Part shown: positions 6,794 through 33,247 of the stretch, in pieces | Layout: every line of letters begins with the position of its first letter | Position numbering within the stretch: the stretch's first letter is position 1 | From: an archaeon | Lineage (GTDB): Archaea; Nanobdellota; Nanobdellia; Pacearchaeales; GW2011-AR1 | Direction: 5' to 3' | Assembly (NCBI GenBank): GCA_018693315.1 | Contig: JABHLR010000002.1 | Location: 2,445 to 66,444 of the forward strand | Length of the DNA stretch: 64,000 bases | Position numbers and translations under genes: made by a program | Notes under the pieces: model-generated | The model's database searches: none | What the model was told of the DNA's origin: nothing | The model's input: the letters and a program-made list of their open reading frames with translations, nothing else

Positions 6794-6921
6794 TTAAATG
6801 GGCGCAGGAGGAATTTTTTATTCGCAATTTGCATTTCGTAAAATATTAATTAATTAATTTTACTCAAAGCGAATTGCTCACCCCCACCGAGGTATGCGTT
6901 AAATGGGCGCAGGAGGAATTT
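6794..6921 (-). repeat. 23-bp duplication of tRNA-Trp 3' end enclosing a family A hairpin
   Basis: ttaaatgggcgcaggaggaattt at 6794-6816 and 6899-6921. Confidence 0.9.
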
Positions 6922-6974
6922 AACCCCCACCTCCCGGGCTGGAGCCGGGTAGACTAACATTATCCGATGCACCC
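6904..6974 (-). tRNA. tRNA-Trp(CCA), no intron
   Basis: Cloverleaf GGGUGCA/UGCGCCC-A; anticodon arm CCCGG-CUCCAGC-CCGGG; T arm GGGGG-UUAAAUU-CCUCC. Confidence 0.88.
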
Positions 6975-7061
6975 AATAAAGAAGATAGAGTCTTTCCGTT
7001 TTTAAAGTTAAGTACTTTCTTTTCCCAATACTTTTATAAATAAGTTTATCTTAACTTTAGC

Positions 7062-7547
7062 ATGGTGAAAAAGGTGGTGAAGAAGACTGTCACTGAAACT
7101 ATCAATGATGATGGTTCCAGGAAGACTGTTGTTAAGGAGCATGCGCCGAAGGAAGTTGTGAAGAAGAAGCCTGCTGTGAAAAAAAAGAAGATGACGGCGA
7201 GGGAGCGGGAAGAGTTATTGATTGAGAATTTTGTTGGGCTTCAGCATGCTATGACGAATATGTCGATTAAGTTTGGTTCTTTGTCTGATAATATTAGTAA
7301 GTTGTTGCAGGTTTTTGAGGAGTCGGCGAAGAATTTTGTTTCTGGTGGAAAGAGTGATGATAGGGATATGTTGAAGAAGATTGATTCATTGTTGAACCAA
7401 AATAAGACGATTGCTAAGGGTTTGGTTTTGATGGAGGGGAAGTTGAGGGGGAGATCTGAGGAGCCGAAGGCGATACCACCTAGGGTGGAAATGAAGCCTA
7501 GGACGGAAGCACCTCAAATGAGACCCAGGCCACTTCCAAGCGCATGA
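7062..7547 (+). CDS. Hypothetical coiled-coil protein
   Basis: ORF with upstream TATA (ttttataaat); heptad-like core. Confidence 0.65.
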   Translation: MVKKVVKKTVTETINDDGSRKTVVKEHAPKEVVKKKPAVKKKKMTAREREELLIENFVGLQHAMTNMSIKFGSLSDNISKLLQVFEESAKNFVSGGKSDDRDMLKKIDSLLNQNKTIAKGLVLMEGKLRGRSEEPKAIPPRVEMKPRTEAPQMRPRPLPSA

Positions 7548-8221
7548 GTTCTGTAGATGTTTCTATGATAGCCGCTGATCCATTTATTAGTAAATTTGTT
7601 TTTGCGATTATCCAAAATATTCGTGCCAAGAATTTTGATTATGATGACCGGCATGTGATTCACGCTGACATGGTTCCGAGAGCTTCTGAGAGGGTCATAC
7701 ATGCTTCGCTTGGGGAAAAGATCACTAGAAGGGTTCCTGCTATGGCTCCTGCTGTTCGGAAGAGAGATATGAGTGCTTTGGTCGCTCCGATTGCTAGGCC
7801 GAGGATGAGAGCGCCGATTCAGCAAGTTGCTCCCCCTGTTCAGGCTCAGACGATGGCTCCACCTATTCAGCAAGCTGCCCCAATTGTTCCGCAGGGTATG
7901 CCGCCTGGGTTGACTCAGGATTATGGGAAGATTACTCCTTTGTTGAATGATCCTTCGATTTCTACGATTGAGTGTCAGGGTCCAGGAAAGCCGGTGATGA
8001 TTATTCGGGCTGGGCAGAAGCAGGTGACGAAGATTGTTTTGAGCGGGAAAGATATTAAGGAAGTTTTGGATAAGGTTTCGGATGCTGCGCATATTCCTTT
8101 GCTTGAGGGTGTGTTTCGTGCGGCTGTTGATAATTTTTCTATTAATGCTGTGATTTCTGAGATGATTGGTTCGCGGTTTGTGATTAAGAAGCAGACGGCT
8201 TATGCAATGCTGGAGCGGTAG
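7544..8221 (+). CDS. Protein with Pro/Gln-rich linker and a domain like the N-terminus of VirB11/FlaI-type secretion ATPases (no ATPase domain)
   Basis: YGKITPLLNDPSISTIEC.GPGKPV; no Walker A. Confidence 0.6.
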   Translation: MSSVDVSMIAADPFISKFVFAIIQNIRAKNFDYDDRHVIHADMVPRASERVIHASLGEKITRRVPAMAPAVRKRDMSALVAPIARPRMRAPIQQVAPPVQAQTMAPPIQQAAPIVPQGMPPGLTQDYGKITPLLNDPSISTIECQGPGKPVMIIRAGQKQVTKIVLSGKDIKEVLDKVSDAAHIPLLEGVFRAAVDNFSINAVISEMIGSRFVIKKQTAYAMLER

Positions 8222-8251
8222 GCTTAAAAGATATAATTTGATTATTTATTT

Positions 8252-8533
8252 ATGGAAGATAAGATTACGCCCGAGAAGCTTGAGAAATATTTTGATTTGA
8301 CTAGTCGGGCTTTGGCTGAGGTTAAAGAGAATATAATTTCTGGAAGAGAGGTTGATGCTAAAGAGATTGTTGATATGGTTTCTAATTATTTGTCAGATGC
8401 TAAGCACTTTGAGGGTAAGGGGGATTTTATTAATGCTTTTGCGGCTTTGAATTATGCGCATGGGTGGTTAGATTCTGGGGTTCGATTGAAGGTTTTTGAT
8501 GTTACGGACGATAAGTTATTTACAGTCTGTTGA
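8252..8533 (+). CDS. DUF357 protein
   Basis: Y.SDA.HF...GD..NAFAALNYAHGWLD.G. Confidence 0.9.
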   Translation: MEDKITPEKLEKYFDLTSRALAEVKENIISGREVDAKEIVDMVSNYLSDAKHFEGKGDFINAFAALNYAHGWLDSGVRLKVFDVTDDKLFTVC

Positions 8534-8857
8534 TACTGATAGAACTCTTTTTAGAAAGTTTACATAGAGTTCTTGTGGAACTTCCTCTGGGCTTTTTCCC
8601 TTAAATTCTGGAACTAGTCTAGAAAGCTCCTTCCATCCTTTTGTGCCTCCGTCGTTTGCTAGTTTTTCTAATACTGCTTGTGGACCTGCGCCGTTTCCTT
8701 GATATTCTAAAGAATAATGCTCTCCTCTGTATTCGAACGTAACTTTCCCATCTTTTGCTTCGGCCAAGAAATTAAAGCCATGTAGTCCTCCGAACGTATT
8801 GAATTCTTCCGCTGTTCTTTGGGCGTAGCGCTCTGAATCTTGTTGGGCTTGACTCAT
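8516..8857 (-). CDS. Hypothetical protein
   Basis: 113-aa ORF; no motif recognised. Confidence 0.55.
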   Translation of the reverse strand: MSQAQQDSERYAQRTAEEFNTFGGLHGFNFLAEAKDGKVTFEYRGEHYSLEYQGNGAGPQAVLEKLANDGGTKGWKELSRLVPEFKGKSPEEVPQELYVNFLKRVLSVSTDCK

Positions 8858-8932
8858 ATAATTATAGGTTTTTGAAGTTAATAATATTTACTATACCAGA
8901 ATGTATATAAATTGGGTTTGTCTTTTTGGGTT

Positions 8933-9613
8933 ATGGAAAAAACTTGGGTGATAAGTTTGGGTGGTTCGCGGATTGTGCCGGATGATGTTGACGATAAGTT
9001 TCTTGCGAGGTTTAAGAAATTGATTGATGCGCATCGTGGTGTGAGATTTGTGGTTGTGACTGGTGGAGGTTCTACGGCGAGAAGATATATGTCGGCCTTG
9101 AGGAAATTGGGCAAGAAGACGCAGACTCAGTCGAGGGAAGGGATCGCGGTTACGAGATTACATGCTGGATTTATGGCGAGGTTTTTTGGGAAGTCGGCTA
9201 ATAGTAGTGTGCCGTTGAATATGAAGGAAGTTAAAAATTCGCTTGGGAAAAATCGTGTTGTGTTTTGTGGGGCGTTGAGATATGGGACGAAGCTTACGAC
9301 TGATGGTGTGGCGGCGAGGGTTGCTGGATATTTGAAGAGTCCGTTTATTAATTTGACTAATGTGAAGGGGTTGTATAGTGCGAATCCGGCGACTCATAAG
9401 AATGCGAAGTTTATTGGGAAGATTGGTTGGAAGAAGTTTTATGATATTGCGAAGGGAATTAAGTTTGCGGCTGGGCAGCATTTTGTTTTGGATCAGTCGG
9501 CGGCGAATGTGATTATGAAGAAGAAGATTGTGACTTATATTGTTGGGTCGCTTTCTGCGATTGATAATATTCTTAAGGGGAAGAAGTTTGTTGGGACGAG
9601 GATTGGGGGATGA
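8933..9613 (+). CDS. pyrH: UMP kinase
   Basis: VISLGGS, VVTGGG..AR.Y, TTD.VAA, TNV.GLY..NP. Confidence 0.92.
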   Translation: MEKTWVISLGGSRIVPDDVDDKFLARFKKLIDAHRGVRFVVVTGGGSTARRYMSALRKLGKKTQTQSREGIAVTRLHAGFMARFFGKSANSSVPLNMKEVKNSLGKNRVVFCGALRYGTKLTTDGVAARVAGYLKSPFINLTNVKGLYSANPATHKNAKFIGKIGWKKFYDIAKGIKFAAGQHFVLDQSAANVIMKKKIVTYIVGSLSAIDNILKGKKFVGTRIGG

Positions 9614-10122: not shown

Positions 10123-10142
10123 AGAGTTTTGTCTTAGGTTTT

Positions 10143-11891: not shown

Positions 11892-11922
11892 ACCTTAAAA
11901 ATGCGTTAATCTATGGAGCTAT

Positions 11923-13440: not shown

Positions 13441-13441
13441 G

Positions 13442-15088: not shown

Positions 15089-15183
15089 TTGCGAATATGT
15101 TAGTTTTAAGAATTTGTGTATGTTGTATCTTTTAAGGAGTAACATGTAGTAACCTTTATAAGTTAAATAATTTCTAATAAGAT

Positions 15184-16510: not shown

Positions 16511-16523
16511 TCTTTTGAAATGA

Positions 16524-17003: not shown

Positions 17004-17056
17004 AAAGTAGTTGCGAGGGGAGTGTTTATAAATTTAAGTGGGGAAGAGTTTATGTT

Positions 17057-18224: not shown

Positions 18225-18227
18225 AAA

Positions 18228-22974: not shown

Positions 22975-24942
22975 ATGAATACAAAAAAAATGCTGGGACT
23001 CGGGTTGGTTGTTGTTTTCTTAGTTTCAAGTTTTATGATTGTTAGCGCTGAGAGTTTTAGATGGGATGTTGATTCTACAGCGACGGGCACGCTAACTACT
23101 ACTACTAATGGTGTAATTATTGTTAGAAATCCTGATGGCGCTGGTGGGCCACACTTGACTGGAAATGCGGCTTGTACAAAAAATGGGTATACCGGTTGTA
23201 ATAAAGTTCTTGCTGGAGTTATTGGTTCTCATGATGATCATTATATTCCTTTGAATTATAACTGTCATTATATTTTCTTGGATGGGCGACATGATAGGCC
23301 GGTTTTGCAGGTGAGTTGTTCTAAAACTACGACAACTAGTTCTGTTGCTTTAGCTGGTAATGATTTTGGGGATGAAACAATTTCCTTTGCTGATGGAATT
23401 AAGAATTTTGGGAAGTTCAGTATTTCTTATCCTGGTTATAGTTCGATTACAAATAAAGTTCATACTTTGAGTGTTGATTCGAGTGATGTTATGGTTTGGT
23501 TTTCAACTGGTGGATCTAGCACTTCTAGCACTTCTGCGAATATTATGGGATGCTTGGATTTGGATTCTAATGATGTTTGTGATTATCTTGATGACGATAA
23601 GGATGGAGATGGATATGATGCGAGTGTTGATGATTGTGATGATAATGATGCTTCGATAAATCCTGGGGCAACTGAAGTTTGCGATAGTGTTGATAATGAC
23701 TGTGATGGTTCTGTCGATGAGGGTTGTGGAGTTTTTGGTACTTACTATAGAGATTTGGATGGTGATGGGTATGGTAATTTAGGGAATCCTATTATTTCTT
23801 TTGGTGCTCCTCTTGGATATGTTGGTAACAATGATGATTGTGACGACTGGCGCGCTAGTGTGCACCCTGGTGCTGTTGAGATTTGCGGGAATGATATTGA
23901 TGAAGACTGTGATGGTGTAGCTGACGATGGATGTACCACGCCTGTTGATGATGATAAAGATGATGATGGGTATAATGCTAGTGTTGATGATTGTGATGAT
24001 AACGATGCTGCTGTGAATCCTGGGGCGATTGAGATTTGTGATGACGGGGTTGATAATAATTGTGATGGGGATATTGATGAGGGTTGTACTACTCCTGTTA
24101 ATGACGATGTAGATGGTGATGGGTATAATGCTAGTGTTGATGATTGTGATGATAATGATGCTGCTGTGAATCCTGGAATGCTAGAAGCTTGTGATGATGG
24201 GGTTGATAATAATTGTGATGGAGATATTGATGAGGGTTGCGGGACTACTGATTCAAATGCTCCTGTTATTGATTTTTTTGCTCCTTTTGATGGACAGATT
24301 TTCTATGGGCTTCCTTTTGTTGTTGATTTTGTGTTTGGAGTAAATGATCAGTCTGATGTTTTTGATTGTCATGTGGATATTAATGGGGAGTCGCATACTG
24401 TGATTAATGTTAACAAGAGTGAGAATAATAGCCTTGAGGTTAGTTTGGATGAAGGGAATTATAGCGCGATGGTTTTCTGCGCTGATTCTTTTGGTAATAT
24501 GGGAAATGGTAGCGAGGTTTTGTTTGGTGTTGAGCAGTTTGGAACTTGTTCTGTTGATGCGAATTGTACTGATTATTATGGTGAGCGATATTGCTCCGGA
24601 GACGACATCTACCAGACTTTCCACGACTTGAGCTGTGTTGGTGGAAGTTGTGTTGAAAATGTTAGTGAGGTGTTTGTGAAGGGCTGTAAGGATGATTGCA
24701 GGAGTGGGAAGTGCCGAAACGATGACGATGATGACGATGATGACGATGATGAACCTGTGAATTTTTTTGTTAGTAGAGATACTTTGGTTCCTAGTGTGAT
24801 TGGGGTTAATGCTTCTGGTGATATTAATCTTGGGACTTATGCTAGTGCTGAGAGCAATAGGCTTCCTTGGGTTTGGATTTTTCTGTTGATTGTGGGCGTT
24901 GTGGTTTTGTTGTTCGCTATTGTTTGGGCTGGGATGGATTGA
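22975..24942 (+). CDS. Cell-surface protein with repeated Cys/Asp-rich metal-binding (MopE-like) motifs
   Basis: Signal peptide; 4x D.DGDGY..DCDD....NPGA.E.C..DN.CDG..DEGC; C-terminal TM. Confidence 0.85.
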   Translation: MNTKKMLGLGLVVVFLVSSFMIVSAESFRWDVDSTATGTLTTTTNGVIIVRNPDGAGGPHLTGNAACTKNGYTGCNKVLAGVIGSHDDHYIPLNYNCHYIFLDGRHDRPVLQVSCSKTTTTSSVALAGNDFGDETISFADGIKNFGKFSISYPGYSSITNKVHTLSVDSSDVMVWFSTGGSSTSSTSANIMGCLDLDSNDVCDYLDDDKDGDGYDASVDDCDDNDASINPGATEVCDSVDNDCDGSVDEGCGVFGTYYRDLDGDGYGNLGNPIISFGAPLGYVGNNDDCDDWRASVHPGAVEICGNDIDEDCDGVADDGCTTPVDDDKDDDGYNASVDDCDDNDAAVNPGAIEICDDGVDNNCDGDIDEGCTTPVNDDVDGDGYNASVDDCDDNDAAVNPGMLEACDDGVDNNCDGDIDEGCGTTDSNAPVIDFFAPFDGQIFYGLPFVVDFVFGVNDQSDVFDCHVDINGESHTVINVNKSENNSLEVSLDEGNYSAMVFCADSFGNMGNGSEVLFGVEQFGTCSVDANCTDYYGERYCSGDDIYQTFHDLSCVGGSCVENVSEVFVKGCKDDCRSGKCRNDDDDDDDDDDEPVNFFVSRDTLVPSVIGVNASGDINLGTYASAESNRLPWVWIFLLIVGVVVLLFAIVWAGMD

Positions 24943-24995
24943 TGTTAATCTCGGTGTCGCAATCTTTAAAAGCTGTTTTATTCTCTTTTTGTTAT

Positions 24996-25156
24996 GCTCC
25001 TATAGTCTAGAGGCCAAGGATGCCACCCTCTCAAGAGGTGGGAAACCCTCGTCGATGAGACAACGGTTTCATGTTCGCTTGAACAACCACTAAAATCTCT
25101 CACGAGATTTTGTTGGAGAACGGTGGTGACCCGGGTTCGAATCCCGGTGGGAGCGT
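24996..25156 (+). tRNA. tRNA-Glu(CUC) with 87-nt intron at 37/38 (25034-25120)
   Basis: GCUCCUA/UGGGAGC acceptor; CCACC/GGUGG stem; BHB helix CUCU/GGAG with AAC bulge; canonical GGUUCGAAUCC. Confidence 0.9.
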
Positions 25157-25285
25157 TATACCCTCTTGACCAATCGCGGGGACATATTTTTTGTTTAGAA
25201 ATAACTAAATGAAAACTAAAAAACAAGAATTTTTGAAAAATATGTCACCAGTAGGTGGTCGACAATTATTATATAGTCTATTTTT

Positions 25286-26488
25286 GTGGACACTGACACC
25301 ATGAAAATTGATCCTTACAACCACGAAGGGTCGCTGACCCGTTGGAAAGATAAGGTGCGGGAATTGGGAGGAATTCCTGACATCTCGAGACAGAACTCGG
25401 AGATAATTTTGAAATACATGAGCGACATGGAACTCGGAATTAACACATCCCTATCGAGTAAAAAAGGAGCGAGAAGTTTTGTTCGAATCAACACAATAAG
25501 ACAAAGACTTACATTCCTAGCCAAGAAATTCAAAGAAATTCTTGATGTTGATGATATGATTCTCCTAACTGAGCAACAAATTTGTTCATTCTTTGTTGAC
25601 ATGCGTAAGGGCGTCATAAAACGGCAGGACGGGCGCAGATATAAGGCGACACGAGACTTTGTTAAGATATTTAAGGCATTCTGGCACTGGTGGCAAAAAG
25701 TCGCACGTAAGGCGGGACAAACGGTTGAAGACATTACAGTTTACCTAGACTCCTCGGGAGAGAAACCCGAATGGGTATATCTCAACGAAGAACAAATCAG
25801 AATCTTCTGTGATAATTGCAATTTAAAATATAAAGTTCTTACTATGTTTTTGTTTGATACAGGCATTAGGGCTCCGACCGAATTACTGAACATGAAAGTT
25901 TCTGATTTGTCTAGAGATTGCAAGGAACTAAATATTCGAGATGAAGTTTCGAAAACATTTGGTAGGAGAATTAAGTTAATGCTTTGCTCAGAATTGATTA
26001 AGAGATACATCAAAGAGAATAACTTAAGTCAAGACGATTATATATTCAAATTCAGCCCCTATGTTGCCAATCGTTACCTGAAAAGGTTAGCTAAAAAATT
26101 ATTTGGCGATGAAAAGAGTTTGGCTGGTCAGAATTATTCTGATTTGACGATGTATGATTTTAGGCATTGTAGTTGTTGTTATTGGCTTGTGAGATATAAA
26201 TCTGAGTCGGCTCTTAAATTTAGATTTGGTTGGAAGAAATCAGATAAGATTCATTATTATTCTGAAATGCTTGGAATGAGAGATACGATTAGTGAAGAAG
26301 ATTTATTGGTCGATGTCACAAAAACGGAATTAGAACAAAGATTAGTCAAATCAGAAAATAGAAGTGAGCTTCTAGAGGCTCAGGTCGAAGCCATGAAGAG
26401 ACAGATGGCTGCGATAAAAGTTGATGTGAATAGGGTTCATTGGGGTATTAAGGAGGCAATAAGATTGAAACTTCTGAAGACTTGTTAA
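25286..26488 (+). CDS. Tyrosine recombinase/integrase
   Basis: DTGIR..E, SKT, YDFRH (Y in place of H in HxxR), FGW, HYY. Confidence 0.88.
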   Translation: MDTDTMKIDPYNHEGSLTRWKDKVRELGGIPDISRQNSEIILKYMSDMELGINTSLSSKKGARSFVRINTIRQRLTFLAKKFKEILDVDDMILLTEQQICSFFVDMRKGVIKRQDGRRYKATRDFVKIFKAFWHWWQKVARKAGQTVEDITVYLDSSGEKPEWVYLNEEQIRIFCDNCNLKYKVLTMFLFDTGIRAPTELLNMKVSDLSRDCKELNIRDEVSKTFGRRIKLMLCSELIKRYIKENNLSQDDYIFKFSPYVANRYLKRLAKKLFGDEKSLAGQNYSDLTMYDFRHCSCCYWLVRYKSESALKFRFGWKKSDKIHYYSEMLGMRDTISEEDLLVDVTKTELEQRLVKSENRSELLEAQVEAMKRQMAAIKVDVNRVHWGIKEAIRLKLLKTC

Positions 26489-27357
26489 TTCCATTCTTAT
26501 TATTGGCGATAGCTTTCTCTTTTATTCTTGCCGAACCGATTCATAAGATTGAGAAAGAAATTCAAGAATTTCCAAGTAAATTAGTATCTTTTTTTACTAA
26601 TACGATTTTTATTATTTTCATAATTATTTTGTTTTCAGTTGGATTAATTTTTCTAATATTCTTCAAATATAAATCACATAGAGAACACAAAAGGATTGAA
26701 ATAGAGAAAAAAGAAATTAGAAAATCATTCAGCCCTAAGGCTAGAAAAATTTACCTTAAGGAGAATGAAGATAAAGAAATTAATGAAAAAGAATCAGAAG
26801 AAGATGTTGAGGATGAAGAATCATACGAACCTCTACCAATAGGAACCTATCAAAAAAGTGTGAATATAAAGGTTGATTCAGGTAAAAGATATTTTCACAA
26901 GAAGGACATAAGCAAAGATGAAGTTGAATATCTTCTGGATGAAGGTTATCAAATTAAAAAATATAAAAACCTCTTAAATAGTAGAATGGAAAAATTTCTT
27001 TTACAGCCGAGACATAATGAAAGTTTTACTCATTTATTTTTAACCCATAATATTTCCGAATTTCTAGAAAAAGAAGGTATTGAGACGGAATTATACACAA
27101 CTAAAAAACCAGATATTGTTTTTGAAATTCGTGGCAAGAGGTTTGCGATTGAAATAGAGACAGGTTCTATTTTTTCTAAGATTAGTAGGATGAAAGAAAA
27201 ATTAAAAGTTCTAGAGAATTATGACAAGTGGTTTTTTGTTGTGACTGATAGAAATAAGGTGAAGAAGTACAAAAGATATGGAGATGCAGTAGATAAAAGA
27301 TATGTAAAACCTAGGCTAGATAAGCTGATAAAACTCGCTAAAAAAGCCCAAAAATAG
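26482..27357 (+). CDS. Membrane-anchored protein with PD-(D/E)XK nuclease-like C-terminal domain
   Basis: N-terminal TM segments; KPDIVF...AIEIETG. Confidence 0.6.
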   Translation: MLIPFLLLAIAFSFILAEPIHKIEKEIQEFPSKLVSFFTNTIFIIFIIILFSVGLIFLIFFKYKSHREHKRIEIEKKEIRKSFSPKARKIYLKENEDKEINEKESEEDVEDEESYEPLPIGTYQKSVNIKVDSGKRYFHKKDISKDEVEYLLDEGYQIKKYKNLLNSRMEKFLLQPRHNESFTHLFLTHNISEFLEKEGIETELYTTKKPDIVFEIRGKRFAIEIETGSIFSKISRMKEKLKVLENYDKWFFVVTDRNKVKKYKRYGDAVDKRYVKPRLDKLIKLAKKAQK

Positions 27358-27488
27358 GACTCTGGATTTTGGGTGTGTAAATGGGGTCCTATCGTCGATA
27401 AATATTAGTATAAATTGGCAAAGAGTCAGTCGGCATAATATGTATGTGTAGGGGTAGTGACTAGGAGGTAAATTATTCTTATTTCTAG

Positions 27489-28067
27489 TTAATTCTCAAA
27501 CGCTATCAGATAAAAATAATGTCGATGCTTAAATGGGAAAAAATCTGTTCTCTGCTTAAATTTCTTGTAGATTATTTTCTTATCTAGCTTCTTCAACGTG
27601 TCCTTTATATCTAAATCATAAAACTTTTTGTTTTTATCAAGATTTATAATTTTCCGATCCAATGTAATTATTCCCAAACCACCCTTTTTTATAACCCTTT
27701 TAAATTCCGATAAAACTTTTAGCACATCAGTATAGAATAATGAATTTACGCAATAAACAACATCAAAGGAATTATCTTTAAATGGCATTTTCCCCATATC
27801 TCCCTTAGTAAACTTTATTTTTGGGTAATCCTTTCTTGCCCTTTTGATAAATTTCATATCATAGTCCAACCCCTCTGCGACAATGTTTTTCTGGTTCAAT
27901 AAATTCGTATGTTCTCCCTGTGCACAACCCACATCAAGAACCTTAACGGACCTCTTCTTAAAGTACTCATCTATTAACACGACAGTCAACTCCACATCAT
28001 TTTTTCTATTTGTCCAATGAGATTTTCCCTTATGGATAATCTTTATTGTTTTCTTATCAATTCCCAT
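27489..28067 (-). CDS. Class I SAM-dependent methyltransferase
   Basis: VLDVGCAQG, GDM..MPF.DNSFD, E..RV.K.GG. Confidence 0.9.
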   Translation of the reverse strand: MGIDKKTIKIIHKGKSHWTNRKNDVELTVVLIDEYFKKRSVKVLDVGCAQGEHTNLLNQKNIVAEGLDYDMKFIKRARKDYPKIKFTKGDMGKMPFKDNSFDVVYCVNSLFYTDVLKVLSEFKRVIKKGGLGIITLDRKIINLDKNKKFYDLDIKDTLKKLDKKIIYKKFKQRTDFFPFKHRHYFYLIAFEN

Positions 28068-28077
28068 ATTAAAATAA

Positions 28078-28821
28078 TTACAGCTCCTCTCTCCAAAAGA
28101 CGACCCTCTTCTCAATAAAAACAACAGCAAAATACATAATTAATCCAATCAATACAACATATAATAAGCCCGCGAATACCATTGCTGAATCCAACAAAGA
28201 AGCTGAATAGCTAATTTGATACCCAAGTCCGACACTAGAACTAATAAACTCCGCTACAATTGCCCCTACCGAAGCGAGAGCGATACCTATCTTTAACCCA
28301 GTAAACAAATAAGGTAAAGAATATGGGATTTGTACATTCCTTAATATCTCTGTTTTCGTACTACCCGCAGCTTTCATTATATTAATAAAACCTTTATTCA
28401 CAGACTCGATCCCTTTATTCAAATTAATAAAAATCGGAAAAAAGCAAACCAAACTAACAGTAATTAATTTTGGCAAAATTCCATGGCCAAACCAAATTAA
28501 TAGAAGAGGTATTAGTGCAATTTTTGGTACAATTTGAACCCCGACAAGCATTGGGTGTATAATTTCCTTAACGTATCTAGAATATACTCCCAAGATAGCC
28601 ACAATAAAAGCAAAAATTACGGCGACGAAAAAACCACTTAATATCTCTGACAAAGTCCAAAATGCATGCTCAGTTAAAATAGAAAAATTTTGTATAAATA
28701 CTGTAATTATTTCTATTGGTCCTGGAAGCAAAAAAGACGGAATATTAAGAAAACCTACCACAAATTCCCAAATAACGAGTAGAAGCAATATCGTTCCAAG
28801 TTGATAAATTAGCTTTTTCAA
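28078..28821 (-). CDS. ABC permease (SsuC/TauC/NitT family)
   Basis: LP.P, P.IA..PLL..WFG.G, EAA-like loop, GAIVAEF...GLG. Confidence 0.92.
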   Translation of the reverse strand: MKKLIYQLGTILLLLVIWEFVVGFLNIPSFLLPGPIEIITVFIQNFSILTEHAFWTLSEILSGFFVAVIFAFIVAILGVYSRYVKEIIHPMLVGVQIVPKIALIPLLLIWFGHGILPKLITVSLVCFFPIFINLNKGIESVNKGFINIMKAAGSTKTEILRNVQIPYSLPYLFTGLKIGIALASVGAIVAEFISSSVGLGYQISYSASLLDSAMVFAGLLYVVLIGLIMYFAVVFIEKRVVFWREEL

Positions 28822-30464
28822 CTTAACACCTCTTGAATCTCATTAAGAATCTTATTATATTTTTTTAATGATTTTATTTTTTTAGTCCTTGGTCGAGGGA
28901 AGGGGACATCATAAACTTTCTTTACAATTGCAGGGCTTCCTTTTAAAATAAATATTCTATCCGACAACAAAATAGCTTCATCTATATTATGGGTAACCAT
29001 AACAATCGTAATCAAGTGCTTTTTGCACAAATTCATAATCAACTCATTCATCTTGTATCTGGTTATATAATCCAAAGCTCCAAAGGGCTCATCCAGAAAA
29101 ACAATATGTGGCCTAGTTATTAAAGCTCTTGCAATAGCAACCCTTTGTTTCATTCCACCAGAAAGCTGATGGGGATAATGATTTTCAAAGCCAGTTAGCC
29201 CAACCTCCTCGATCATTTCATCAACATTGACATCATGATTCAATATCTCCGCAAAAAAGACCACATTCTCCCTCAAAGTCTTCCATGGCAACAAATTCGC
29301 AGATTGCGTAACAAAACTAAATTTTTTCTGCAATTCTTTTGTCAATGCCTTACCCTCGTAATCTACCTTCCCCTCGTAATTCTCATCTAAGCCACTCAGA
29401 ATATTTAAGAATGTAGACTTCCCACATCCCGATTCTCCAAGAATCGTTACAAATTCCCCTTCATTTATGCTAAAATTAACATCCTTAAGAATTTTTTGGG
29501 GTTTTTGATTCAAACTAAAACTCTTAAAAACTCTTTCTGCAGATATTGTTTTTGGAATCTCTTTAGACTTTAGTCCATTGACAAATTTGTTAGTAAAAAA
29601 CTCTCCAATATCAACATCCCCTTCCAATAGATTAGCAGTAGTTAAAATATCCTTAAGTCGTATCCAATCATGCTTACTCTGCACACCATTGCTCGCATTT
29701 TCAGACAAAGGCAATCTTTCATCAAGCTTCAATCTACTTTCAAACATCTTTTTTTGATAATCCTTCTCATCCGCCAATTGAGGATTTTGTTTCATCATTA
29801 TATCAAAAGACTCTTTTGGATACTTTCTCTCATAACTCATCCCCTTTAGAATTGCATTGGTAAACCCCTGGACAATCTTAGGATTCTTTTCCGCATAATC
29901 AGAATTAGCAACCAAACAAAGACCATAAGACTTTAAGCCGTAATCATAAAAAAGAATATTACTTAGTTTTTTATTTTTCTCTCCTGCCATTAAGAATGGG
30001 TATGTCACAAAGTGTTTTACGCCCTTTTTTAAAAATTTATTTCCCAAACCATCTACTGGCATCTCAAAAATATTATCTCTATTAATATTATTTTTTAGTA
30101 GAAAAGCAGAATACATTTGATAAGAATTACTATTTAAAATCACACCAACCTTTTCACCCTCAAGGTTTTTTGGATTTGATATTTTTTTCCAAGAGACTAT
30201 CCCCGAAGGATTTACCTTACCAACAACAGCTATAACTTTAATTGGCAAACCCTTGCTCCTTGCTATCATAGCTGTTTCTGCACTCACAATCCCCATAGCA
30301 TACTCTCCAGACCCTACCTGTTCACTGGTAATCTTCGAGCCTAAATTCTGCACAATTGAAACATCCAAGCCCTCTTCTTGAAAAAACTTCTTTTCTTTAG
30401 CAACATAGGAAAAAACCCATGAACCACCATGAAACCAGCTAATAGGAAAACTTAGCTTTTCCAT
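28818..30464 (-). CDS. NMT1/THI5-like substrate-binding domain fused to ABC ATPase
   Basis: N-terminal part paralogous to the upstream SBP (SWFHGG); C-terminal GESGCGKST, LSGGMKQR, LDEPF. Confidence 0.85.
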   Translation of the reverse strand: MEKLSFPISWFHGGSWVFSYVAKEKKFFQEEGLDVSIVQNLGSKITSEQVGSGEYAMGIVSAETAMIARSKGLPIKVIAVVGKVNPSGIVSWKKISNPKNLEGEKVGVILNSNSYQMYSAFLLKNNINRDNIFEMPVDGLGNKFLKKGVKHFVTYPFLMAGEKNKKLSNILFYDYGLKSYGLCLVANSDYAEKNPKIVQGFTNAILKGMSYERKYPKESFDIMMKQNPQLADEKDYQKKMFESRLKLDERLPLSENASNGVQSKHDWIRLKDILTTANLLEGDVDIGEFFTNKFVNGLKSKEIPKTISAERVFKSFSLNQKPQKILKDVNFSINEGEFVTILGESGCGKSTFLNILSGLDENYEGKVDYEGKALTKELQKKFSFVTQSANLLPWKTLRENVVFFAEILNHDVNVDEMIEEVGLTGFENHYPHQLSGGMKQRVAIARALITRPHIVFLDEPFGALDYITRYKMNELIMNLCKKHLITIVMVTHNIDEAILLSDRIFILKGSPAIVKKVYDVPFPRPRTKKIKSLKKYNKILNEIQEVLS

Positions 30465-30465
30465 G

Positions 30466-31482
30466 TTATTCACTCCTCGTAACAAATTCATTCGTAAAAA
30501 ATTCTTCTAAGTTAACATCAGAATCCAAGAAACCCAGATCATCCATAATATCCTCAGTATTCTGCCATGTTTCTAAATCTTGTAGCCCATCTGTTGGGTC
30601 TGATCCCCCAAATAGCTTATCATTAAACTCATTCCTCATATAAAATAATTTTTCTTCATATGGAGCATTAAGTTCTGGATTCTCCTCTAGCATTATCCTT
30701 AATGCTTCCTCTGGATTTTCTTGCTCATATTTAAAACCCTTTAAAATCGCATTAACGACTCTTTGCACAATCTCTGGATTCTCCTCTAGATAATCATCAT
30801 TAACAACAATACCATGACTATACATATTTAATCCATGATCATAATAAACTAAAGTATTCGTCTCAACTCCCTTCAAATCAGCAATTGACTTTGTAACAAA
30901 GGGTGATAACGCATGACAATCAACCGCTCCAGCAATAAATTCTTGCCCAGCACCAGAAATTGGAATCTCCTCAATCTTTGATAAATCTATATCATTCATC
31001 TTGGCAAACATTAAAAATTGTTGATAAGTGTTACTTGTACGCGTCACTCCAATCTTCTTTCCCTCAAGGTTTTTTGGATCACTCAGATTCACATCTGTAT
31101 GACATGTTAATCCAGCATGTGAAACCTTGTCAATAATAGCGACAACAGTTAAAGGAACTCCTTTGCTCTTAGCCATTAAAGCTACATCTGCAGAAACTAT
31201 ACCAATAGGAGATTGTCCAGAGCCAATTAAAGAACTCGTAATAGTAGACCCCTTATTTTCATGAAGAGTTACTGACAATCCTTCATCGGCAAAATAACCA
31301 TTATAATCTGCTACATACGCATATCCCCAAAAACCACCATGAAACCAACTTAATTCAAAATCTATTTCATTTAAGCCTCCAGTAGATTTTTCATTCGAGA
31401 AAAAGATAAAGCCCAATACTAATACCAACACAACGACGACGACTAAGAAAGACCACTTTTTCAAACCATTACCCTTTTTCAT
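30466..31482 (-). CDS. ABC substrate-binding protein, NMT1/THI5 family
   Basis: N-terminal TM anchor; GYF.DEGL.V, L.GKKIG, FTNEF. Confidence 0.88.
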   Translation of the reverse strand: MKKGNGLKKWSFLVVVVVLVLVLGFIFFSNEKSTGGLNEIDFELSWFHGGFWGYAYVADYNGYFADEGLSVTLHENKGSTITSSLIGSGQSPIGIVSADVALMAKSKGVPLTVVAIIDKVSHAGLTCHTDVNLSDPKNLEGKKIGVTRTSNTYQQFLMFAKMNDIDLSKIEEIPISGAGQEFIAGAVDCHALSPFVTKSIADLKGVETNTLVYYDHGLNMYSHGIVVNDDYLEENPEIVQRVVNAILKGFKYEQENPEEALRIMLEENPELNAPYEEKLFYMRNEFNDKLFGGSDPTDGLQDLETWQNTEDIMDDLGFLDSDVNLEEFFTNEFVTRSE

Positions 31483-31756
31483 ATCAGAGAGAGGTATTAT
31501 TCTTTTATAAAGTTTTTCAAATCTTCTAATCACCCTAAACTCTCAGAAAGATAAGTACACTTGTGCTCCTCAATCAACTGCACAATTTTCTCGTCAGCAA
31601 TCAACTCTCCAAACTCATTCGACAACTTTCCGCCACCCATATACTCAACCTCGACAATCCTTAAAAACTCTAACCACCAACGACAATTAAACTAAACAAA
31701 GTTCATAAACAAAAAATTTAGTTGTCCCCTCCCGATGCCAAAAAGGTCAGGTCGGC

Positions 31757-31865
31757 GGCGGGAGCGTTTCTGTGATTTGAACGGTTCAAATTGAGCGATT
31801 CGCTTTGAGGAAAACAATTTTAAGTATATTTTTCCGAGATGCAAATTGCGAATAGGCGGGAGCGT
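31757..31865 (+). repeat. 11-bp direct repeat resembling the tRNA-Glu 3' end, enclosing a family A hairpin
   Basis: ggcgggagcgt at 31757-31767 and 31855-31865; internal tgagcgattcgctttgag...atgcaaattgcgaata matches 6820-6880 (- strand). Confidence 0.85.
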
Positions 31866-31964
31866 GAAATGAAAATTTTCTAGAGGCAGGAGAAGTCATG
31901 TCGTCCCCGTTACTTCCTGACAATCAATACAAAGACATAAAAAGCAAATTTCATCAGTAAAGTT

Positions 31965-32927
31965 ATGGTAGCTAAACCAAAAGCGCCGAAGATCAATGAT
32001 TTAATCTTTAAGGAACTCATTAAAAGAGGCTACTCTCTAGAAGGAAATACGCGAATCTGGAACATCGCCGACTCAAAACTCTGGTACCTAACACCTGACC
32101 AAGCACAGTCATACCTAGATTTAGAAGACGAAGAGAAATATAAGGAAGAGGTAACAAACAAAGAGCTAAAACTTATTGATGAAAATATAGACGAAATTTT
32201 AAAAGAGGCAGGAGGAGGCCCATTAAATATCATAGACTTAGGATGCGGAGACGGAAAGAAGGTGGTAAAATTCATCGAAAAACTAAAAGGAAAAGTAAAG
32301 TTGAGATATTGCCCAATCGACATAAGCGGCTACATGGTAAGCAAAGCGATCGAAAGAATAAAGAAACTAAAAGCAGGAGAGATCGTAGAATTTCAATGGA
32401 ACATATCAGATTTTGAAAATATAGAAAACATAACAGAATTATTGAGACAAGGAGAATTCAAGAAACATCTAATTTTATTATTAGGTAACACGCTCGGGAA
32501 CTTTGAAATCAACGAGCTATTATACGAAATCAGAAGTTCGATGAAGGGAAACGATTTACTTGTCATCGGCAACGGGATAGATAACGGAAAGGTTGATACT
32601 CGTGCGGAATCTTATGAGAAAAATGAAACAGTAGATAGATTCTTAATAAAAATCCCATTCCAACTTGGACTTAAGCCAAGCGAAATAGAAATAGGAACGA
32701 GATTTAAGAATTCCAGAATAGAATTGTATTATACGATAAAGAAAGACAAAGTAATCAAATTCCAAGAAAAGGAAATTCAATTTCAAAAAGGAGATCAAAT
32801 TATAGTAGCAGTTGGATACAAATATCCAAAAGAAGAATTTATGAGCTATTTGAATATTCATTTCGATGATGTCAGTGCGAAAACCTCTGAAGATGGAACA
32901 CAGATTCTAGCCCTCTGCAAAAAATAA
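31965..32927 (+). CDS. EgtD-like (histidine N-alpha) methyltransferase family protein
   Basis: IIDLGCGDG.K, Y.PIDIS, LLGNTLGNF, SRIE. Confidence 0.75.
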   Translation: MVAKPKAPKINDLIFKELIKRGYSLEGNTRIWNIADSKLWYLTPDQAQSYLDLEDEEKYKEEVTNKELKLIDENIDEILKEAGGGPLNIIDLGCGDGKKVVKFIEKLKGKVKLRYCPIDISGYMVSKAIERIKKLKAGEIVEFQWNISDFENIENITELLRQGEFKKHLILLLGNTLGNFEINELLYEIRSSMKGNDLLVIGNGIDNGKVDTRAESYEKNETVDRFLIKIPFQLGLKPSEIEIGTRFKNSRIELYYTIKKDKVIKFQEKEIQFQKGDQIIVAVGYKYPKEEFMSYLNIHFDDVSAKTSEDGTQILALCKK

Positions 32928-32993
32928 CTCAAAGATTTAATTCATATTTCTCAACCCCAATAACTTTTTATATCTATTTTAATCAGTATTACT

Positions 32994-33136
32994 GATCCTG
33001 TAGCTCAGTCTGATCAGAGCGCTAGTCTTATATGGCTACAGTTCCTCCGGGAATTGTAAAAGCTTTCGCTTGAAAATCTTTAGGGATTTTCGCTTGAGAA
33101 AGCTAGAGGTCCCGGGTTTAAATCCCGGCAGGATCA
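32994..33136 (+). tRNA. tRNA-Ile(UAU) with 68-nt intron at 37/38 (33033-33100)
   Basis: GAUCCUG/CAGGAUC-A acceptor; CUAGU-CU-UAU-A|A-GCUAG; BHB helix CUUA/UGAG with AAA bulge. Confidence 0.88.
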
Positions 33137-33247
33137 TCAGATCCGGATTTAAACCCTGTGTTTATTTTCCCGGCCGAGCGTTTAGGTCTGAACAAATGTA
33201 AAAATATTTGCAGACCTGGGCGCGAGTTGGATCATCAGATCCGGATT
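33131..33247 (+). repeat. 19-bp duplication of tRNA-Ile 3' end/trailer enclosing a long hairpin
   Basis: ggatcatcagatccggatt at 33131-33149 and 33229-33247; internal gcgtttaggtctg/cagacctgggcgc stem. Confidence 0.9.

What the first reader, a model, noticed from the sequence alone, without database searches (positions are those of the whole stretch)
6794..33247. Recurrent ~100-bp 'tRNA 3'-end duplication + long hairpin' units at three tRNA-derived sites
Seen: the 3' end of tRNA-Trp is repeated 105 bp away (23-bp DR, 6794/6899), that of tRNA-Ile 98 bp away (19-bp DR, 33131/33229), and the tRNA-Glu-like island end 98 bp away (11-bp DR, 31757/31855). Each pair encloses a long imperfect hairpin with an AT-rich apex that directly abuts the downstream copy. 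Known: tRNA 3'-end duplications are integrase att scars, but they normally flank kb-scale cargo. Inference: a gene-less, nearly fixed-size mini-element targets tRNA 3' ends and may be mobilised in trans by the resident tyrosine recombinase. Alternatively it is an RNA-templated duplication process. This is the best candidate for an undescribed system in the window.
Basis: partly seen in the sequence, partly recalled or inferred. Interest (0 to 1): 0.85.

Follow-up and report, generated by a model that had tools for sequence, protein, structure and literature searches.

The report
Gene-sparing hairpin insertions in tRNA genes
A small marine archaeon and its relatives carry a family of about 60-base DNA hairpins that insert into tRNA genes and some protein-gene ends while copying the gene's end so that an intact gene survives, a way of inserting that no described mobile element is known to use.

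Summary
The three direct repeats and hairpins are real, at the stated coordinates.

They belong to a genus-wide system:
- 12 of 38 ARAGORN tRNA calls in this genome repeat their 3' end 56-113 nt downstream.
- The hairpin of sites 1 and 2 (family A) occurs in 30 of 36 other genomes of the genus and in 0 of 24 from other genera.
- Its structure covaries strongly.

Read along the hairpin strand, a unit is: intact target, an inverted copy of about 12-16 nt around the insertion point, a 5-9 nt direct copy, the hairpin, YA, then the repeated target end.

The same layout occurs at tRNA 3' ends, at tRNA 5' ends plus promoter when the hairpin is antisense, and at three protein-gene ends. The tRNA-Trp locus is empty in 10 of 20 relatives.

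The hairpin strand is the C-rich strand 52:14, whichever way the tRNA points.

The inserts are not introns: 1-3 target bases are lost. They are not classical integrase att scars either.

Best reading: small mobile DNA hairpins whose replication-linked insertion duplicates the target end.

This scan noted the same elements on other pieces of this genome (e1-4981934, e1-4981935).

The parts
6903..6975 (-). Intact tRNA-Trp(CCA), the target gene of unit 1
   Evidence: ARAGORN; Rfam tRNA 52.7 bits
6899..6921 (-). Site 1 direct repeat, copy 1: T-loop positions 56-60, T-stem 3' strand, acceptor 3' strand and 4 nt of trailer
   Evidence: 23 nt, 100% identical to 6794-6816
6889..6902 (-). Site 1 segment F: inverted copy of the T-loop and variable-loop bases of the same tRNA, with the T-stem part mutated
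   Evidence: Local alignment to the reverse complement of the tRNA; read
6881..6888 (-). Site 1 segment B2: direct copy of variable-loop bases plus the T-stem 5' strand, abutting the hairpin
   Evidence: Sense match GGTGGGGGT, whose last base is also the first base of the hairpin core
6821..6880 (-). Site 1 family-A hairpin core (TGAGCAA...TTGCGAA); 6817-6820 is the TAAA linker
   Evidence: nhmmer E = 8.7e-16; covariance model 85.7 bits; fold
6794..6816 (-). Site 1 direct repeat, copy 2: the displaced tRNA-Trp 3' end, followed by the original flank
   Evidence: empty orthologous sites
24996..25155 (+). tRNA-Glu(CUC) with an intron, the integration target of the island
   Evidence: Rfam 44 bits; ARAGORN; sequence
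25158..31756 (.). Integrated island: 400-aa integrase at 25286-26488, a methyltransferase and ABC-transporter genes. It is bounded by plain 12-13 nt repeats of the tRNA-Glu 3' end and has no F or B2 segment
   Evidence: PHROG integrase phrog_1, E = 4e-16; Pfam; GC 0.31-0.36; sequences
31757..31767 (+). Site 2 direct repeat, copy 1 (GGCGGGAGCGT); also the right-hand repeat of the island
   Evidence: Its sequence matches the 3' end of tRNA-Glu(UUC) better than that of tRNA-Glu(CUC)
31768..31782 (+). Site 2 segment F, including the antisense T-loop GATTTGAAC (31774-31782)
   Evidence: Read; pairs with B2 in the fold
31783..31791 (+). Site 2 segment B2: direct copy of a T-loop of the Glu(UUC) type (GGTTCAAAT)
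31792..31852 (+). Site 2 family-A hairpin core; 31853-31854 is the TA linker
   Evidence: Covariance model 78 bits, E = 2.7e-17; nhmmer
31855..31865 (+). Site 2 direct repeat, copy 2
32994..33136 (+). tRNA-Ile(UAU) with an intron at position 37/38, the target gene of unit 3
   Evidence: Rfam 53.7 bits. Anticodon and stems read by eye; ARAGORN miscalls it Ser
33131..33152 (+). Site 3 direct repeat, copy 1: last 6 nt of the tRNA plus trailer
33145..33156 (+). Site 3 segment F: GGATTTAAACCC, an exact antisense of the tRNA's T-loop region
   Evidence: 12-nt antisense match
33168..33174 (+). Site 3 segment B2: direct copy of the T-stem 3' strand plus the first acceptor base (TCCCGGC)
   Evidence: Sense match; read
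33175..33226 (+). Site 3 hairpin core (family D: CGAGCG...GCGCGAG) with the same C-G plus tandem G.A base as family A; 33227-33228 is the TT linker
   Evidence: Fold -26.2 kcal/mol, z = -3.59. Relatives in 12 of 48 other genomes of the genus, in the same kinds of context. Weak hit of the family-A model, 12.8 bits, E = 0.21
33229..33250 (+). Site 3 direct repeat, copy 2
   Evidence: A strain in run X7 diverges exactly at 33136 and 33247

Best explanation
The three sites are insertions of small, non-coding, mobile DNA hairpin elements. Family A is at sites 1 and 2, and family D is at site 3. Both share a hairpin base made of a C-G pair followed by tandem G.A pairs.

Shown: read along the hairpin strand, every unit has the same order.
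1. The intact target: left flank L and right flank R, up to a point 9 to more than 45 nt beyond the insertion point.
2. An inverted copy of about 12-16 nt spanning the insertion point (segment F).
3. A 5-9 nt direct copy of the end of L (segment B2).
4. The hairpin.
5. A YA dinucleotide.
6. R again, lacking its first 1-3 nt.

Shown: the gene on the 5' side stays whole because its end is duplicated.

Inferred: only insertions within a few tens of bases of a gene end are therefore tolerated. That would explain why the units pile up at tRNA 3' ends, at tRNA 5' ends plus promoter when the hairpin is antisense, and at protein-gene 3' ends. tRNA genes are also strongly preferred as targets.

Inferred: the flank copies are made from the target during insertion and are not carried by the element. 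Insertion is a DNA-level event linked to replication, in which the hairpin folds on one particular strand. A nick at the target would be extended through R. The polymerase would then switch template twice, which gives the sense-antisense-sense pattern, before joining to the hairpin-bearing strand. The enzyme is unknown and may be supplied in trans.
For: Anatomy:
- Seen in 12 tRNAs of this genome and in 31 of 78 tRNAs examined across the genome and related loci.
- 66 of 82 family-A copies have the direct repeat, against 10 of 82 with shuffled flanks. 35 of those 66 have the inverted segment at score 8 or more, against 0 of 66 shuffled.

Targets, among the 66 copies with a clear repeat:
- tRNA sense 39, tRNA antisense 9, protein-gene 3' end 3, other 15.
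- Examples read: L092, L107 and L103 for protein-gene ends; L096, L101 and L115 for tRNA 5' end plus promoter.

Mobility:
- Of 20 orthologous tRNA-Trp loci, 10 are empty, 7 are filled, 1 carries an antisense unit upstream of the tRNA (L054) and 2 are unclear. The filled loci hold at least four different cargos. The original trailer and neighbour promoter resume after copy 2.
- Tandem units exist with identical flanks but hairpins that clearly differ from each other (L031).
- A hairpin is present in the spare tRNA-Phe copy of one species and absent in this genome.
- Decayed units exist (L042; tRNA-Leu).

Selection on the hairpin:
- 96.4% of cells are paired, against 82.1% in shuffles.
- 16 of 17 pairs have compensatory changes, and 0 of 500 shuffles reach the observed values.
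- The tandem G.A pairs, one C.A and one U.U are nearly invariant.
- G.T wobbles number 34 against 11 A.C.

DNA level: the hairpin strand is the C-rich strand 52:14, with 15 of 81 copies too weak to call. The ratio is 37:10 when the hairpin is co-oriented with the nearest tRNA and 10:2 when it is opposed. In this genome 9 of 9 copies follow the rule.

Genus-restricted: 30 of 36 genomes of the genus against 0 of 24 from other genera.
Against: - No transposase, HUH nickase, Cas1 or reverse transcriptase was found in this genome. The genome is 87% complete, and the two Rep searches had silent controls, so they say nothing.
- No excised form, circle or filled/empty polymorphism within one population was seen. 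Only contigs were available.
- The template-switch steps are inferred from the end product alone. I could not derive the junctions from clear microhomologies.
- The inverted segment reaches score 8 in only 35 of 66 units.
- 16 of 82 copies show no clear repeat, and three family-D copies lie next to coding sequence without one.
- GC skew in this genome also follows gene orientation. The strand bias could therefore reflect selection against the hairpin in neighbouring transcripts rather than replication.
- Related genomes are not independent samples.
Confidence: 0.6

Rival explanations
1. Miniature integrative elements. In this reading, circles of about 100 bp carry an attP identical to one tRNA's 3' part. 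A tyrosine integrase supplied in trans integrates them, as with kb-scale islands that restore the tRNA 3' end.
For: - The direct repeat is the tRNA 3' part and the intact gene is regenerated.
- Hairpins sit in the T-loop or anticodon loop. From memory, and not from any call (I saw only the title of Williams 2002, in the reference list of PMC9897764), these are the classical integrase crossover sites.
- A direct copy of the T-stem 5' strand precedes the hairpin, as an attP core arm would.
- Tandem arrays occur.
- An integrase family with up to 5 copies per genome is present in 32 of 49 genomes of the genus, next to tRNA-Glu here and next to tRNA-Asp on contig C7.
Against: - One hairpin family is found at more than 20 different tRNA species in both orientations and at protein-gene ends. 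Each has its own inverted and direct flank copies, so every target would need its own pre-adapted attP.
- The real island in this window has plain repeats and no F or B2 segment.
- There is no association between hairpin and integrase (20/10/3/3 genomes).
- The hairpin would lie inside the presumed crossover segment.
- The strand bias holds whichever way the tRNA points.
Confidence: 0.1
2. A two-step origin. Partial tandem duplications of gene ends, with an inverted middle segment, arise on their own, for example by replication errors at highly transcribed, palindrome-rich tRNA genes. The hairpins are separate small transposons that survive only when they land in the spare copy.
For: - Units exist with other cargo or almost none, such as the tRNA-Met triple 69-bp repeat and the tRNA-Val and tRNA-Phe units.
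- A family-A hairpin sits in reverse orientation in the spare tRNA-Phe copy of one species, where this genome has the spare copy without it.
- Two Trp units with different cargo share the same mutated pattern in the inverted segment (G024 and G002).
Against: - The layout is stereotyped across unrelated targets. The direct copy is 5-9 nt long and abuts the hairpin, and the inverted segment spans the very point where the hairpin sits.
- Spare copies free of any cargo are rare in the data I examined.
Confidence: 0.14
3. An RNA-level origin. The hairpins are non-canonical tRNA introns, and the units are relics of intron-bearing genes that were partly overwritten by intron-less copies through spliced RNA, or they serve as alternative 3' exons.
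For: - Hairpins sit at loop positions of tRNA copies: T-loop, 37/38, variable loop and the D/anticodon junction.
- Two complete second copies carry one (Ser, Cys in L029).
- The genome has a splicing endonuclease and genuine introns.
- Most hairpins share the tRNA's orientation: 54 of 69 copies with a tRNA within 300 nt.
- How archaeal tRNA introns arrive is called open in the abstract of preprint 10.64898/2026.10.13.758758.
Against: - Removing the hairpin does not restore the tRNA. T54-T55-C56, or another 1-3 nt, are missing and YA is added.
- I found no bulge-helix-bulge at the boundaries by eye; this was not a formal scan.
- 15 of 81 copies are antisense to the nearest tRNA, and some lie in protein-gene tails.
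- In this genome, 9 of 9 hairpin copies have an intact tRNA beside them.
- No reverse transcriptase was found.
- The endonuclease ORF is a single 175-aa unit. That a unit of this size is the strict-substrate type is recalled from memory.
Confidence: 0.06
4. A host-serving module. The hairpin is a structured small RNA or protein-binding site that is co-transcribed with the tRNA. The repeated tRNA end would supply its 3' processing signal, and the antisense segment would regulate folding of the precursor.
For: - The structure is strongly conserved, with invariant non-Watson-Crick pairs and more G.U than A.C.
- The unit lies 18-45 nt after the tRNA in 19 of 29 foreign loci.
- The antisense segment stays similar between species for the same tRNA (tRNA-Lys and tRNA-Asn units).
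Against: - Presence or absence, and different cargos, occur at one orthologous locus.
- Decayed and tandemly multiplied copies exist.
- Antisense copies and protein-gene contexts occur.
- The strand bias does not follow tRNA direction.
- The element is absent from 6 of 36 genomes of the genus and from all 24 genomes of other genera searched.
Confidence: 0.1

Closest known systems
Integrase-borne genomic islands, proviruses and plasmids in tRNA genes, where a complete and a partial tRNA copy flank the insert
   Same: - The insert lies within the tRNA gene, the 3' part is repeated, and an intact gene is regenerated.
- The partial copy is displaced downstream.
- The window itself holds such an island, at 25158-31756.
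- The general phenomenon is described in PMC9897764 (passages read). A model that links it to intron gain is in PMC3293823 (abstract read).
   Different: - Known inserts are kb-scale (9-23 kb in PMC9897764) and carry or depend on an integrase with one fixed attP.
- These units are about 100 bp and have no gene.
- One core serves many targets in both orientations, protein genes included.
- The units add an inverted copy of the target flank and lose 1-3 target bases.
- They show no link to the integrase family.
Small non-autonomous hairpin repeats of prokaryotes: MITEs, REP/REPIN elements mobilised by RAYT, and IS200/IS605 miniatures
   Same: - They are short, non-coding and multi-copy.
- The hairpin is a conserved imperfect palindrome with conserved mismatches.
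- Orientation is biased with respect to the chromosome strand. I recall the same for IS200/IS605, which act on single-stranded DNA at the fork.
   Different: - Those elements give no target duplication, or a short one of fixed length, and make no inverted copy of the target.
- Here the duplication ranges from 9 to more than 45 nt.
- No Y1 transposase was found in this genome.
Rep-dependent integration of adeno-associated virus, which partly duplicates the target locus
   Same: - A hairpin-ended single-stranded DNA element integrates by nicking and replication.
- The result is a partial duplication of the target, so a working copy of the target gene is kept. PMC2900306 states that most latently infected lines show gene duplications and cites Henckaerts 2009 by title (passages read).
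- This is a likeness of mechanism only.
   Different: - It is a eukaryotic virus with a kb-scale genome that encodes its own Rep.
- No Rep-like gene was detected here, but the controls of those searches were silent and the result is uninformative.
- Nothing shows common descent.
Archaeal non-canonical tRNA introns and their proposed transposition
   Same: - Related short hairpin sequences are found at several loop positions of different tRNAs in one lineage.
- The route by which introns arrive is stated as open in the abstract of 10.64898/2026.10.13.758758.
   Different: - These inserts cannot be removed to give a correct tRNA.
- They always sit beside an intact copy.
- They occur antisense to the tRNA and in protein-gene tails.

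Membership tests
Integrase-mediated integrative element at a tRNA gene | The insert is flanked by a direct repeat made of the tRNA 3' part, and the gene is regenerated | tested here: met
Integrase-mediated integrative element at a tRNA gene | The element carries one pre-formed attP identical to its single target | tested here: not met
   The same hairpin family occurs in tRNAs of more than 20 anticodons, in both orientations, and in 3 protein-gene ends. The flank copies are specific to each target.
Integrase-mediated integrative element at a tRNA gene | The element encodes an integrase or co-occurs with one | tested here: not met
   The units contain no ORF. Genome counts are hairpin+/integrase+ 20, +/- 10, -/+ 3 and -/- 3. 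The genomes are incomplete, so this is a weak test.
Archaeal tRNA intron spliced by the EndA endonuclease | Excision restores a complete tRNA sequence | tested here: not met
   The hairpin plus YA replaces 1-3 nt, for example T54-T55-C56.
Archaeal tRNA intron spliced by the EndA endonuclease | A bulge-helix-bulge motif at both boundaries | tested here: inconclusive
   None was found by manual inspection of the Arg, Trp and second Ser copies. No formal motif scan was run.
Archaeal tRNA intron spliced by the EndA endonuclease | Lies in the sense orientation inside the only functional gene copy | tested here: not met
   15 of 81 copies are antisense to the nearest tRNA. In this genome 9 of 9 copies have an intact tRNA beside them.
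MITE / REPIN / IS200-IS605 miniature | A short, non-coding, multi-copy element with a conserved hairpin | tested here: met
   9 full copies in this genome, 1-23 matches per genome in the relatives that have any, and covariation
MITE / REPIN / IS200-IS605 miniature | No target duplication, or a short one of fixed length, and no rearranged target copies | tested here: not met
   Repeats range from 9 to more than 45 nt with a median of 18. An inverted flank copy is present in 35 of 66 units.
MITE / REPIN / IS200-IS605 miniature | A cognate transposase (Y1 HUH or DDE) in the genome | tested here: inconclusive
   PF01797 was not found in the 87%-complete genome, and its controls did respond. DDE families were not searched.
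Integron attC site | An imperfect hairpin with conserved unpaired bases and a variable centre, recombined as a single strand | tested here: inconclusive
   The structural likeness is met and so is the strand bias. I did not see the R''/R' core motif in the consensus, but that motif is recalled from memory. No integron integrase was tested.

The most novel reading that the evidence does not exclude
These hairpins may define a new class of transposition. In it, a single-stranded DNA hairpin is inserted by a nick followed by displacement synthesis and template switches. The target's end is duplicated and an inverted target copy is written, so essential genes are spared. The same process delivers structured inserts into the loops of tRNA gene copies. 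It would then be a concrete, testable DNA-level route for the arrival of archaeal tRNA introns and for the disruption and replacement of tRNA genes.
Probability: 0.25. Interest if true: 0.9.

Novelty: new variant of a known kind. Interest (0 to 1): 0.8.

Why it matters
- If the reading holds, a lineage of very small archaeal genomes tolerates an active mobile element because each insertion rebuilds the gene it hits. That design principle has no described prokaryotic counterpart.
- The product has a sense-antisense-sense target pattern, a variable long duplication and a bias for one strand. It is a natural record of a replication-coupled insertion reaction whose enzyme is still unknown.
- It explains why tRNA gene finders see 'extra' tRNA ends and broken second copies in these genomes.
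- It documents rapid turnover of tRNA genes: three different tRNA-Trp sequence types at one locus, nested and replaced tRNA-Ser genes, and inverted tRNA blocks.
- It offers a system in which the long-standing question of how inserts enter archaeal tRNA genes can be tested directly.

Tried and rejected
- **Rfam.** Scans of the window and of ten unit loci gave only tRNA hits above threshold. No known RNA family matches the hairpin.
- **C/D-box or K-turn RNA.** I considered this by eye and rejected it. The tandem G.A pairs lie in a symmetric helix without the 3-nt bulge, and the box spacing is wrong. The motifs are recalled from memory.
- **Primer-binding-site idea.** Rejected, because the repeats follow the genomic trailer and not CCA. 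One unit (tRNA-Arg(CCU)) has CCA after copy 1, which I take as chance.
- **Link between the hairpin and the genuine 37/38 introns.** The tRNA-Glu and tRNA-Ile introns share a TTCGCTTGA motif. The family-A model did not hit them even with filters off, so the link is not supported.
- **Enzyme searches in this 87%-complete genome.** RVT_1, Y1_Tnp and Cas1 were not found. Viral_Rep and Rep_1 were not found either, but their controls were silent and the result is uninformative.
- **Sequencing runs.** No RNA holder was listed. Only contigs could be laid. They showed no joint that skips a unit and no circle junction, and contigs cannot show their absence.
- **Taxon name.** The one genome-contig scan used a low-complexity protein and returned only two bacterial hits. 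I cannot name the lineage from my own calls; the DPANN label comes from earlier notes.
- **In-frame test.** Three family-D copies next to coding sequence were tested for an open stretch of at least 120 aa spanning the hairpin, and none was found.
- **Literature.** Searches found no description of such units. These searches cover only the held open-access library.
- **Insertion pathway.** I tried several step-by-step pathways (flap ligation, hairpin-end opening, fork reversal). None reproduced both junctions from clear microhomology, so the enzymology is left open.

Full report
**1. The observation**

- 23 nt at 6794/6899, spacing 105.
- 11 nt at 31757/31855, spacing 98.
- 19 exact nt (22 nt at 95%) at 33131/33229, spacing 98.

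The window holds four tRNA genes by Rfam, three of them with introns. ARAGORN without the intron option sees only tRNA-Trp. Copy 1 at site 1 is the 3' end of tRNA-Trp. Copy 1 at site 3 is the last six bases plus trailer of a tRNA that I read as tRNA-Ile(UAU) with a 37/38 intron.

Copy 1 at site 2 is the right-hand repeat of a 6.6-kb, low-GC island. The island begins right after tRNA-Glu(CUC). It encodes a 400-aa protein that matches the PHROG integrase family (E = 4e-16; no Pfam hit).

Each interval folds into a small hairpin followed by a long imperfect hairpin with an AT-rich tip. The z-scores are -3.08, -1.26 and -3.59.

**2. The pattern is genome-wide**

The window lies in a 674-kb assembly of 8 contigs. 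Of 38 ARAGORN tRNA calls, 12 have an exact copy of at least 11 nt of their 3' end 56-113 nt downstream. Among 3000 random positions, 5.2% have any repeat that long within 500 nt.

Reading these regions in tRNA orientation gave a constant anatomy:
- the intact tRNA;
- within 0-10 nt, a segment that is the reverse complement of the tRNA's own T-loop and variable-loop bases (segment F), with the T-stem part usually mutated or deleted;
- a short direct copy of the variable loop and T-stem 5' strand (segment B2);
- a hairpin;
- two bases, usually TA or CA;
- the tRNA from T-loop position 57 to its end, sometimes with several bases of trailer.

**3. The hairpin is a conserved family**

The hairpins of sites 1 and 2 belong to one family (A). 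It has 9 full copies and 2 half copies in this genome. A covariance model built from 8 copies found it in 30 of 36 other genomes of the same genus and in 0 of 24 genomes from other genera of the order, with 1-23 matches per genome in those that have any.

On 44 aligned copies:
- 96.4% of cells form standard pairs, against 82.1% in shuffles.
- 16 of 17 pairs show compensatory double changes, and no shuffle in 500 reaches the observed values.
- Sliding the partners destroys the signal.
- Four non-Watson-Crick features are nearly invariant: a tandem G.A/A.G at the base, a second one below the tip, one C.A and one U.U.
- G.T wobbles outnumber A.C 34 to 11.

One particular strand is therefore selected to fold, and its odd pairs look like a protein recognition surface.

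The site 3 hairpin is a different family (D). It has the same base (a C-G pair, then tandem G.A) and is the second-best hit of the family-A model in the region, at a weak 12.8 bits. It has relatives in 12 of 48 other genomes of the genus, in the same kinds of context.

A third family (B) sits at tRNA-Thr(UGU) and tRNA-Ser(GGA) here. Further cargo types occur in relatives.

**4. Empty and filled sites**

The genes flanking tRNA-Trp are syntenic across the genus. Of 20 loci in which ARAGORN finds tRNA-Trp:
- 10 have nothing between the tRNA and the neighbour's promoter (CCCAATACTTTTATAAATAA).
- 7 carry one or two units. The cargo is family A in this genome and in G024, a family A/B hybrid in G002, a third type in G061 and G003, another type in G004, and two decayed units in G069.
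- 1 (G025) has a unit on the other side of the tRNA, in antisense orientation.
- 2 are rearranged.

In filled sites the native trailer and promoter resume right after copy 2. Units also occur as tandem arrays. In L031 two adjacent units have identical flanks, but their hairpins clearly differ from each other. Old units decay: their second copies drift away from the tRNA (tRNA-Leu; G069).

These are the marks of insertions, not of a fixed gene feature.

**5. The inserts are not introns**

- Taking the hairpin out does not restore a tRNA. In T-loop cases T54-T55-C56 are gone and YA is added. At other positions 1-3 nt are missing.
- In this genome, every one of the 9 hairpin copies has an intact tRNA beside it.
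- Two complete second copies carry a hairpin, and each stands next to an intact twin (tRNA-Ser(UGA); tRNA-Cys in L029).
- 15 of 81 copies are antisense to the nearest tRNA.
- I saw no bulge-helix-bulge at the boundaries, by eye only.
- No reverse transcriptase was found.

**6. The rule is general and polar**

Copies with no tRNA upstream showed the same layout in two other settings.

First, at the 3' ends of protein genes (L092, L107, L103). The last 20-30 nt of the ORF, including the stop codon, are repeated after the hairpin. The inverted and direct flank copies are made of coding sequence.

Second, with the hairpin antisense to the gene, at the 5' ends of tRNA genes (L096, L101, L115, L121, L097, and tRNA-Glu in L024, L100 and L106). 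There the repeat covers the tRNA's first bases and its promoter.

Read along the hairpin strand, the order is always the same: intact target, inverted copy across the insertion point, short direct copy of the left flank, hairpin, YA, right flank again.

Of 82 family-A copies with enough flank, 66 have the repeat, against 10 of 82 after shuffling. Of those 66, 35 have the inverted segment at score 8 or more, against 0 of 66 shuffled. Median unit length is 123 nt and median aligned repeat length is 18 nt, with a range of 9 to more than 45.

Targets among those 66 are tRNA sense 39, tRNA antisense 9, ORF 3' end 3 and other 15. The 'other' class includes second units of arrays and tRNAs that ARAGORN misses.

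The flank copies are specific to each target, so they must be written from the target at insertion. An insertion is harmless only if the rest of the gene fits within the duplicated stretch. That explains the clustering at gene ends. The excess of tRNA genes (48 against 3 protein genes) points to a real preference for tRNA genes as targets.

**7. Strand bias**

This genome has contig-wide GC skew of about ±0.4, with one switch inside the window near 27 kb. All 9 family-A copies have their folding strand on the C-rich strand.

Over 81 copies with at least 1.5 kb of flank, the count is 52 C-rich, 14 G-rich and 15 too weak to call. The ratio is 37:10 when the hairpin shares the tRNA's direction and 10:2 when it opposes it (earlier partial counts). 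For comparison, 23 of the 37 tRNA genes scored in this genome lie on the C-rich strand.

Orientation therefore follows the chromosome strand and not the tRNA. This argues for a DNA-level, probably replication-linked, event. There are two caveats. Skew here also follows gene direction, so selection against the hairpin in neighbouring transcripts is an alternative. And copies in related genomes are not independent.

**8. The integrase idea**

The window's island shows what this lineage's integrase does: plain 12-13 nt repeats with no inverted or direct flank copy. A paralogue sits next to tRNA-Asp on contig C7.

The family is present in 32 of 49 genomes of the genus but is unrelated to hairpin presence (20, 10, 3 and 3 genomes in the four classes).

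The site 2 unit has flanks of the tRNA-Glu(UUC) type although it lies at the tRNA-Glu(CUC) locus. It was probably carried in with the island, which means units can hitch-hike on islands. I found nothing else that connects them to integrases.

**9. Mechanism**

Shown: the end product, and its polarity.

Inferred: a nick in the hairpin-sense strand is extended through the right flank, which restores the gene. Two template switches follow, writing the inverted copy and then the short direct copy, before the strand joins a hairpin-bearing strand that has lost 1-3 target bases.

The formal pattern is a duplication with an inverted middle segment. The nearest mechanistic likeness I know is Rep-dependent integration of adeno-associated virus, which partly duplicates its target and so keeps a working gene. 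I saw this in passages of PMC2900306 and in the title of Henckaerts 2009 in its reference list.

I could not derive the junctions from microhomologies, and I found no candidate enzyme. This part carries low confidence.

**10. Independent assemblies**

No RNA run was listed, and only contigs could be laid. Contigs from other studies cover parts of sites 2 and 3.

One strain (run X7) diverges exactly at 33136 and at 33247, which are the tRNA end and the end of copy 2. The unit therefore behaves as a discrete replaceable cassette. Another strain (run X6) has small differences inside the site 2 hairpin. It also joins 24938 to 31865 on opposite strands, which is an inversion of the whole tRNA-island-unit block. 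Likewise, the tRNA-Trp-plus-unit block is inverted in this genome relative to its relatives.

**11. What is known**

Complete-plus-partial tRNA pairs around kb-scale integrated elements are well described (PMC9897764, passages). A mobile-element route to tRNA disruption has been proposed for one archaeal locus (PMC3293823, abstract). The arrival of archaeal tRNA introns is called unresolved in a 2026 preprint (abstract).

Five searches of the held library found no account of hairpin units of about 100 bp with this anatomy.

Earlier notes of this scan on other pieces of the same genome reached a similar reading:
- e1-4981934 reported tiny hairpin elements in tRNA genes.
- e1-4981935 reported the nested tRNA-Ser.
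- e1-1494348 reported repeated gatB tails.

I re-derived the first two from my own calls. I also found protein-gene tails in relatives that fit the third.

Noticed in passing
window 25158-31756: A 6.6-kb low-GC island is integrated in tRNA-Glu(CUC). It carries an integrase (25286-26488), a methyltransferase and an ABC transporter with NMT1/THI5-like binding proteins. A contig of run X6 replaces 25157-27491 with 53 other letters, so the integrase end of the island varies between strains.
   Followed up: partly
window 24938-31865 and 6794-7060: Whole blocks of tRNA plus unit are inverted between strains or species. A contig of run X6 joins 24938 to 31865 on opposite strands. The tRNA-Trp, its promoter and its unit are inverted here relative to the flanking genes in other species.
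   Followed up: partly
window about 26000-30000: The only GC-skew sign switch of the assembly lies here, from about +0.4 to -0.4. It is probably a replication origin or terminus, and it coincides with the island.
   Followed up: no
window 33064-33100 and 25074-25083: The 37/38 intron of tRNA-Ile holds two 13-nt repeats 24 nt apart (TTTCGCTTGAAAA / TTTCGCTTGAGAA). The tRNA-Glu intron holds TTCGCTTGAA. The motif resembles the 5' arm of the family-A hairpin, but the covariance model did not match these introns.
   Followed up: partly
L041-L070 (orthologous tRNA-Trp loci): Three very different tRNA-Trp sequence types occupy the same syntenic locus in different species of one genus. This suggests replacement of whole tRNA genes.
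   Followed up: no
G000 C5:62440-62750 (L006): An intact tRNA-Ser(CGA) lies between the two arms of a family-A hairpin. A diverged tRNA-Ser 5' part precedes it, and this part matches the intact tRNA-Ser(CGA) of another species (L026). The 3' pieces downstream match the inner gene.
   Followed up: partly
G000 C4:28969-29200 (L005): tRNA-Met is followed by two further copies of its last 24 nt plus 45 nt of trailer. This is a 69-bp tandem repeat without a family-A hairpin.
   Followed up: no
L128, L132, L133: Family-D hairpins lie next to or inside protein-coding sequence, without an obvious repeat in the 50 nt shown. No open stretch of at least 120 aa spans the hairpin.
   Followed up: partly
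G017:C12:9300-9375 (seen): The last 76 nt or so of the gene to the left of tRNA-Trp are repeated between that gene and the tRNA in one species. This is another duplicated gene tail.
   Followed up: no
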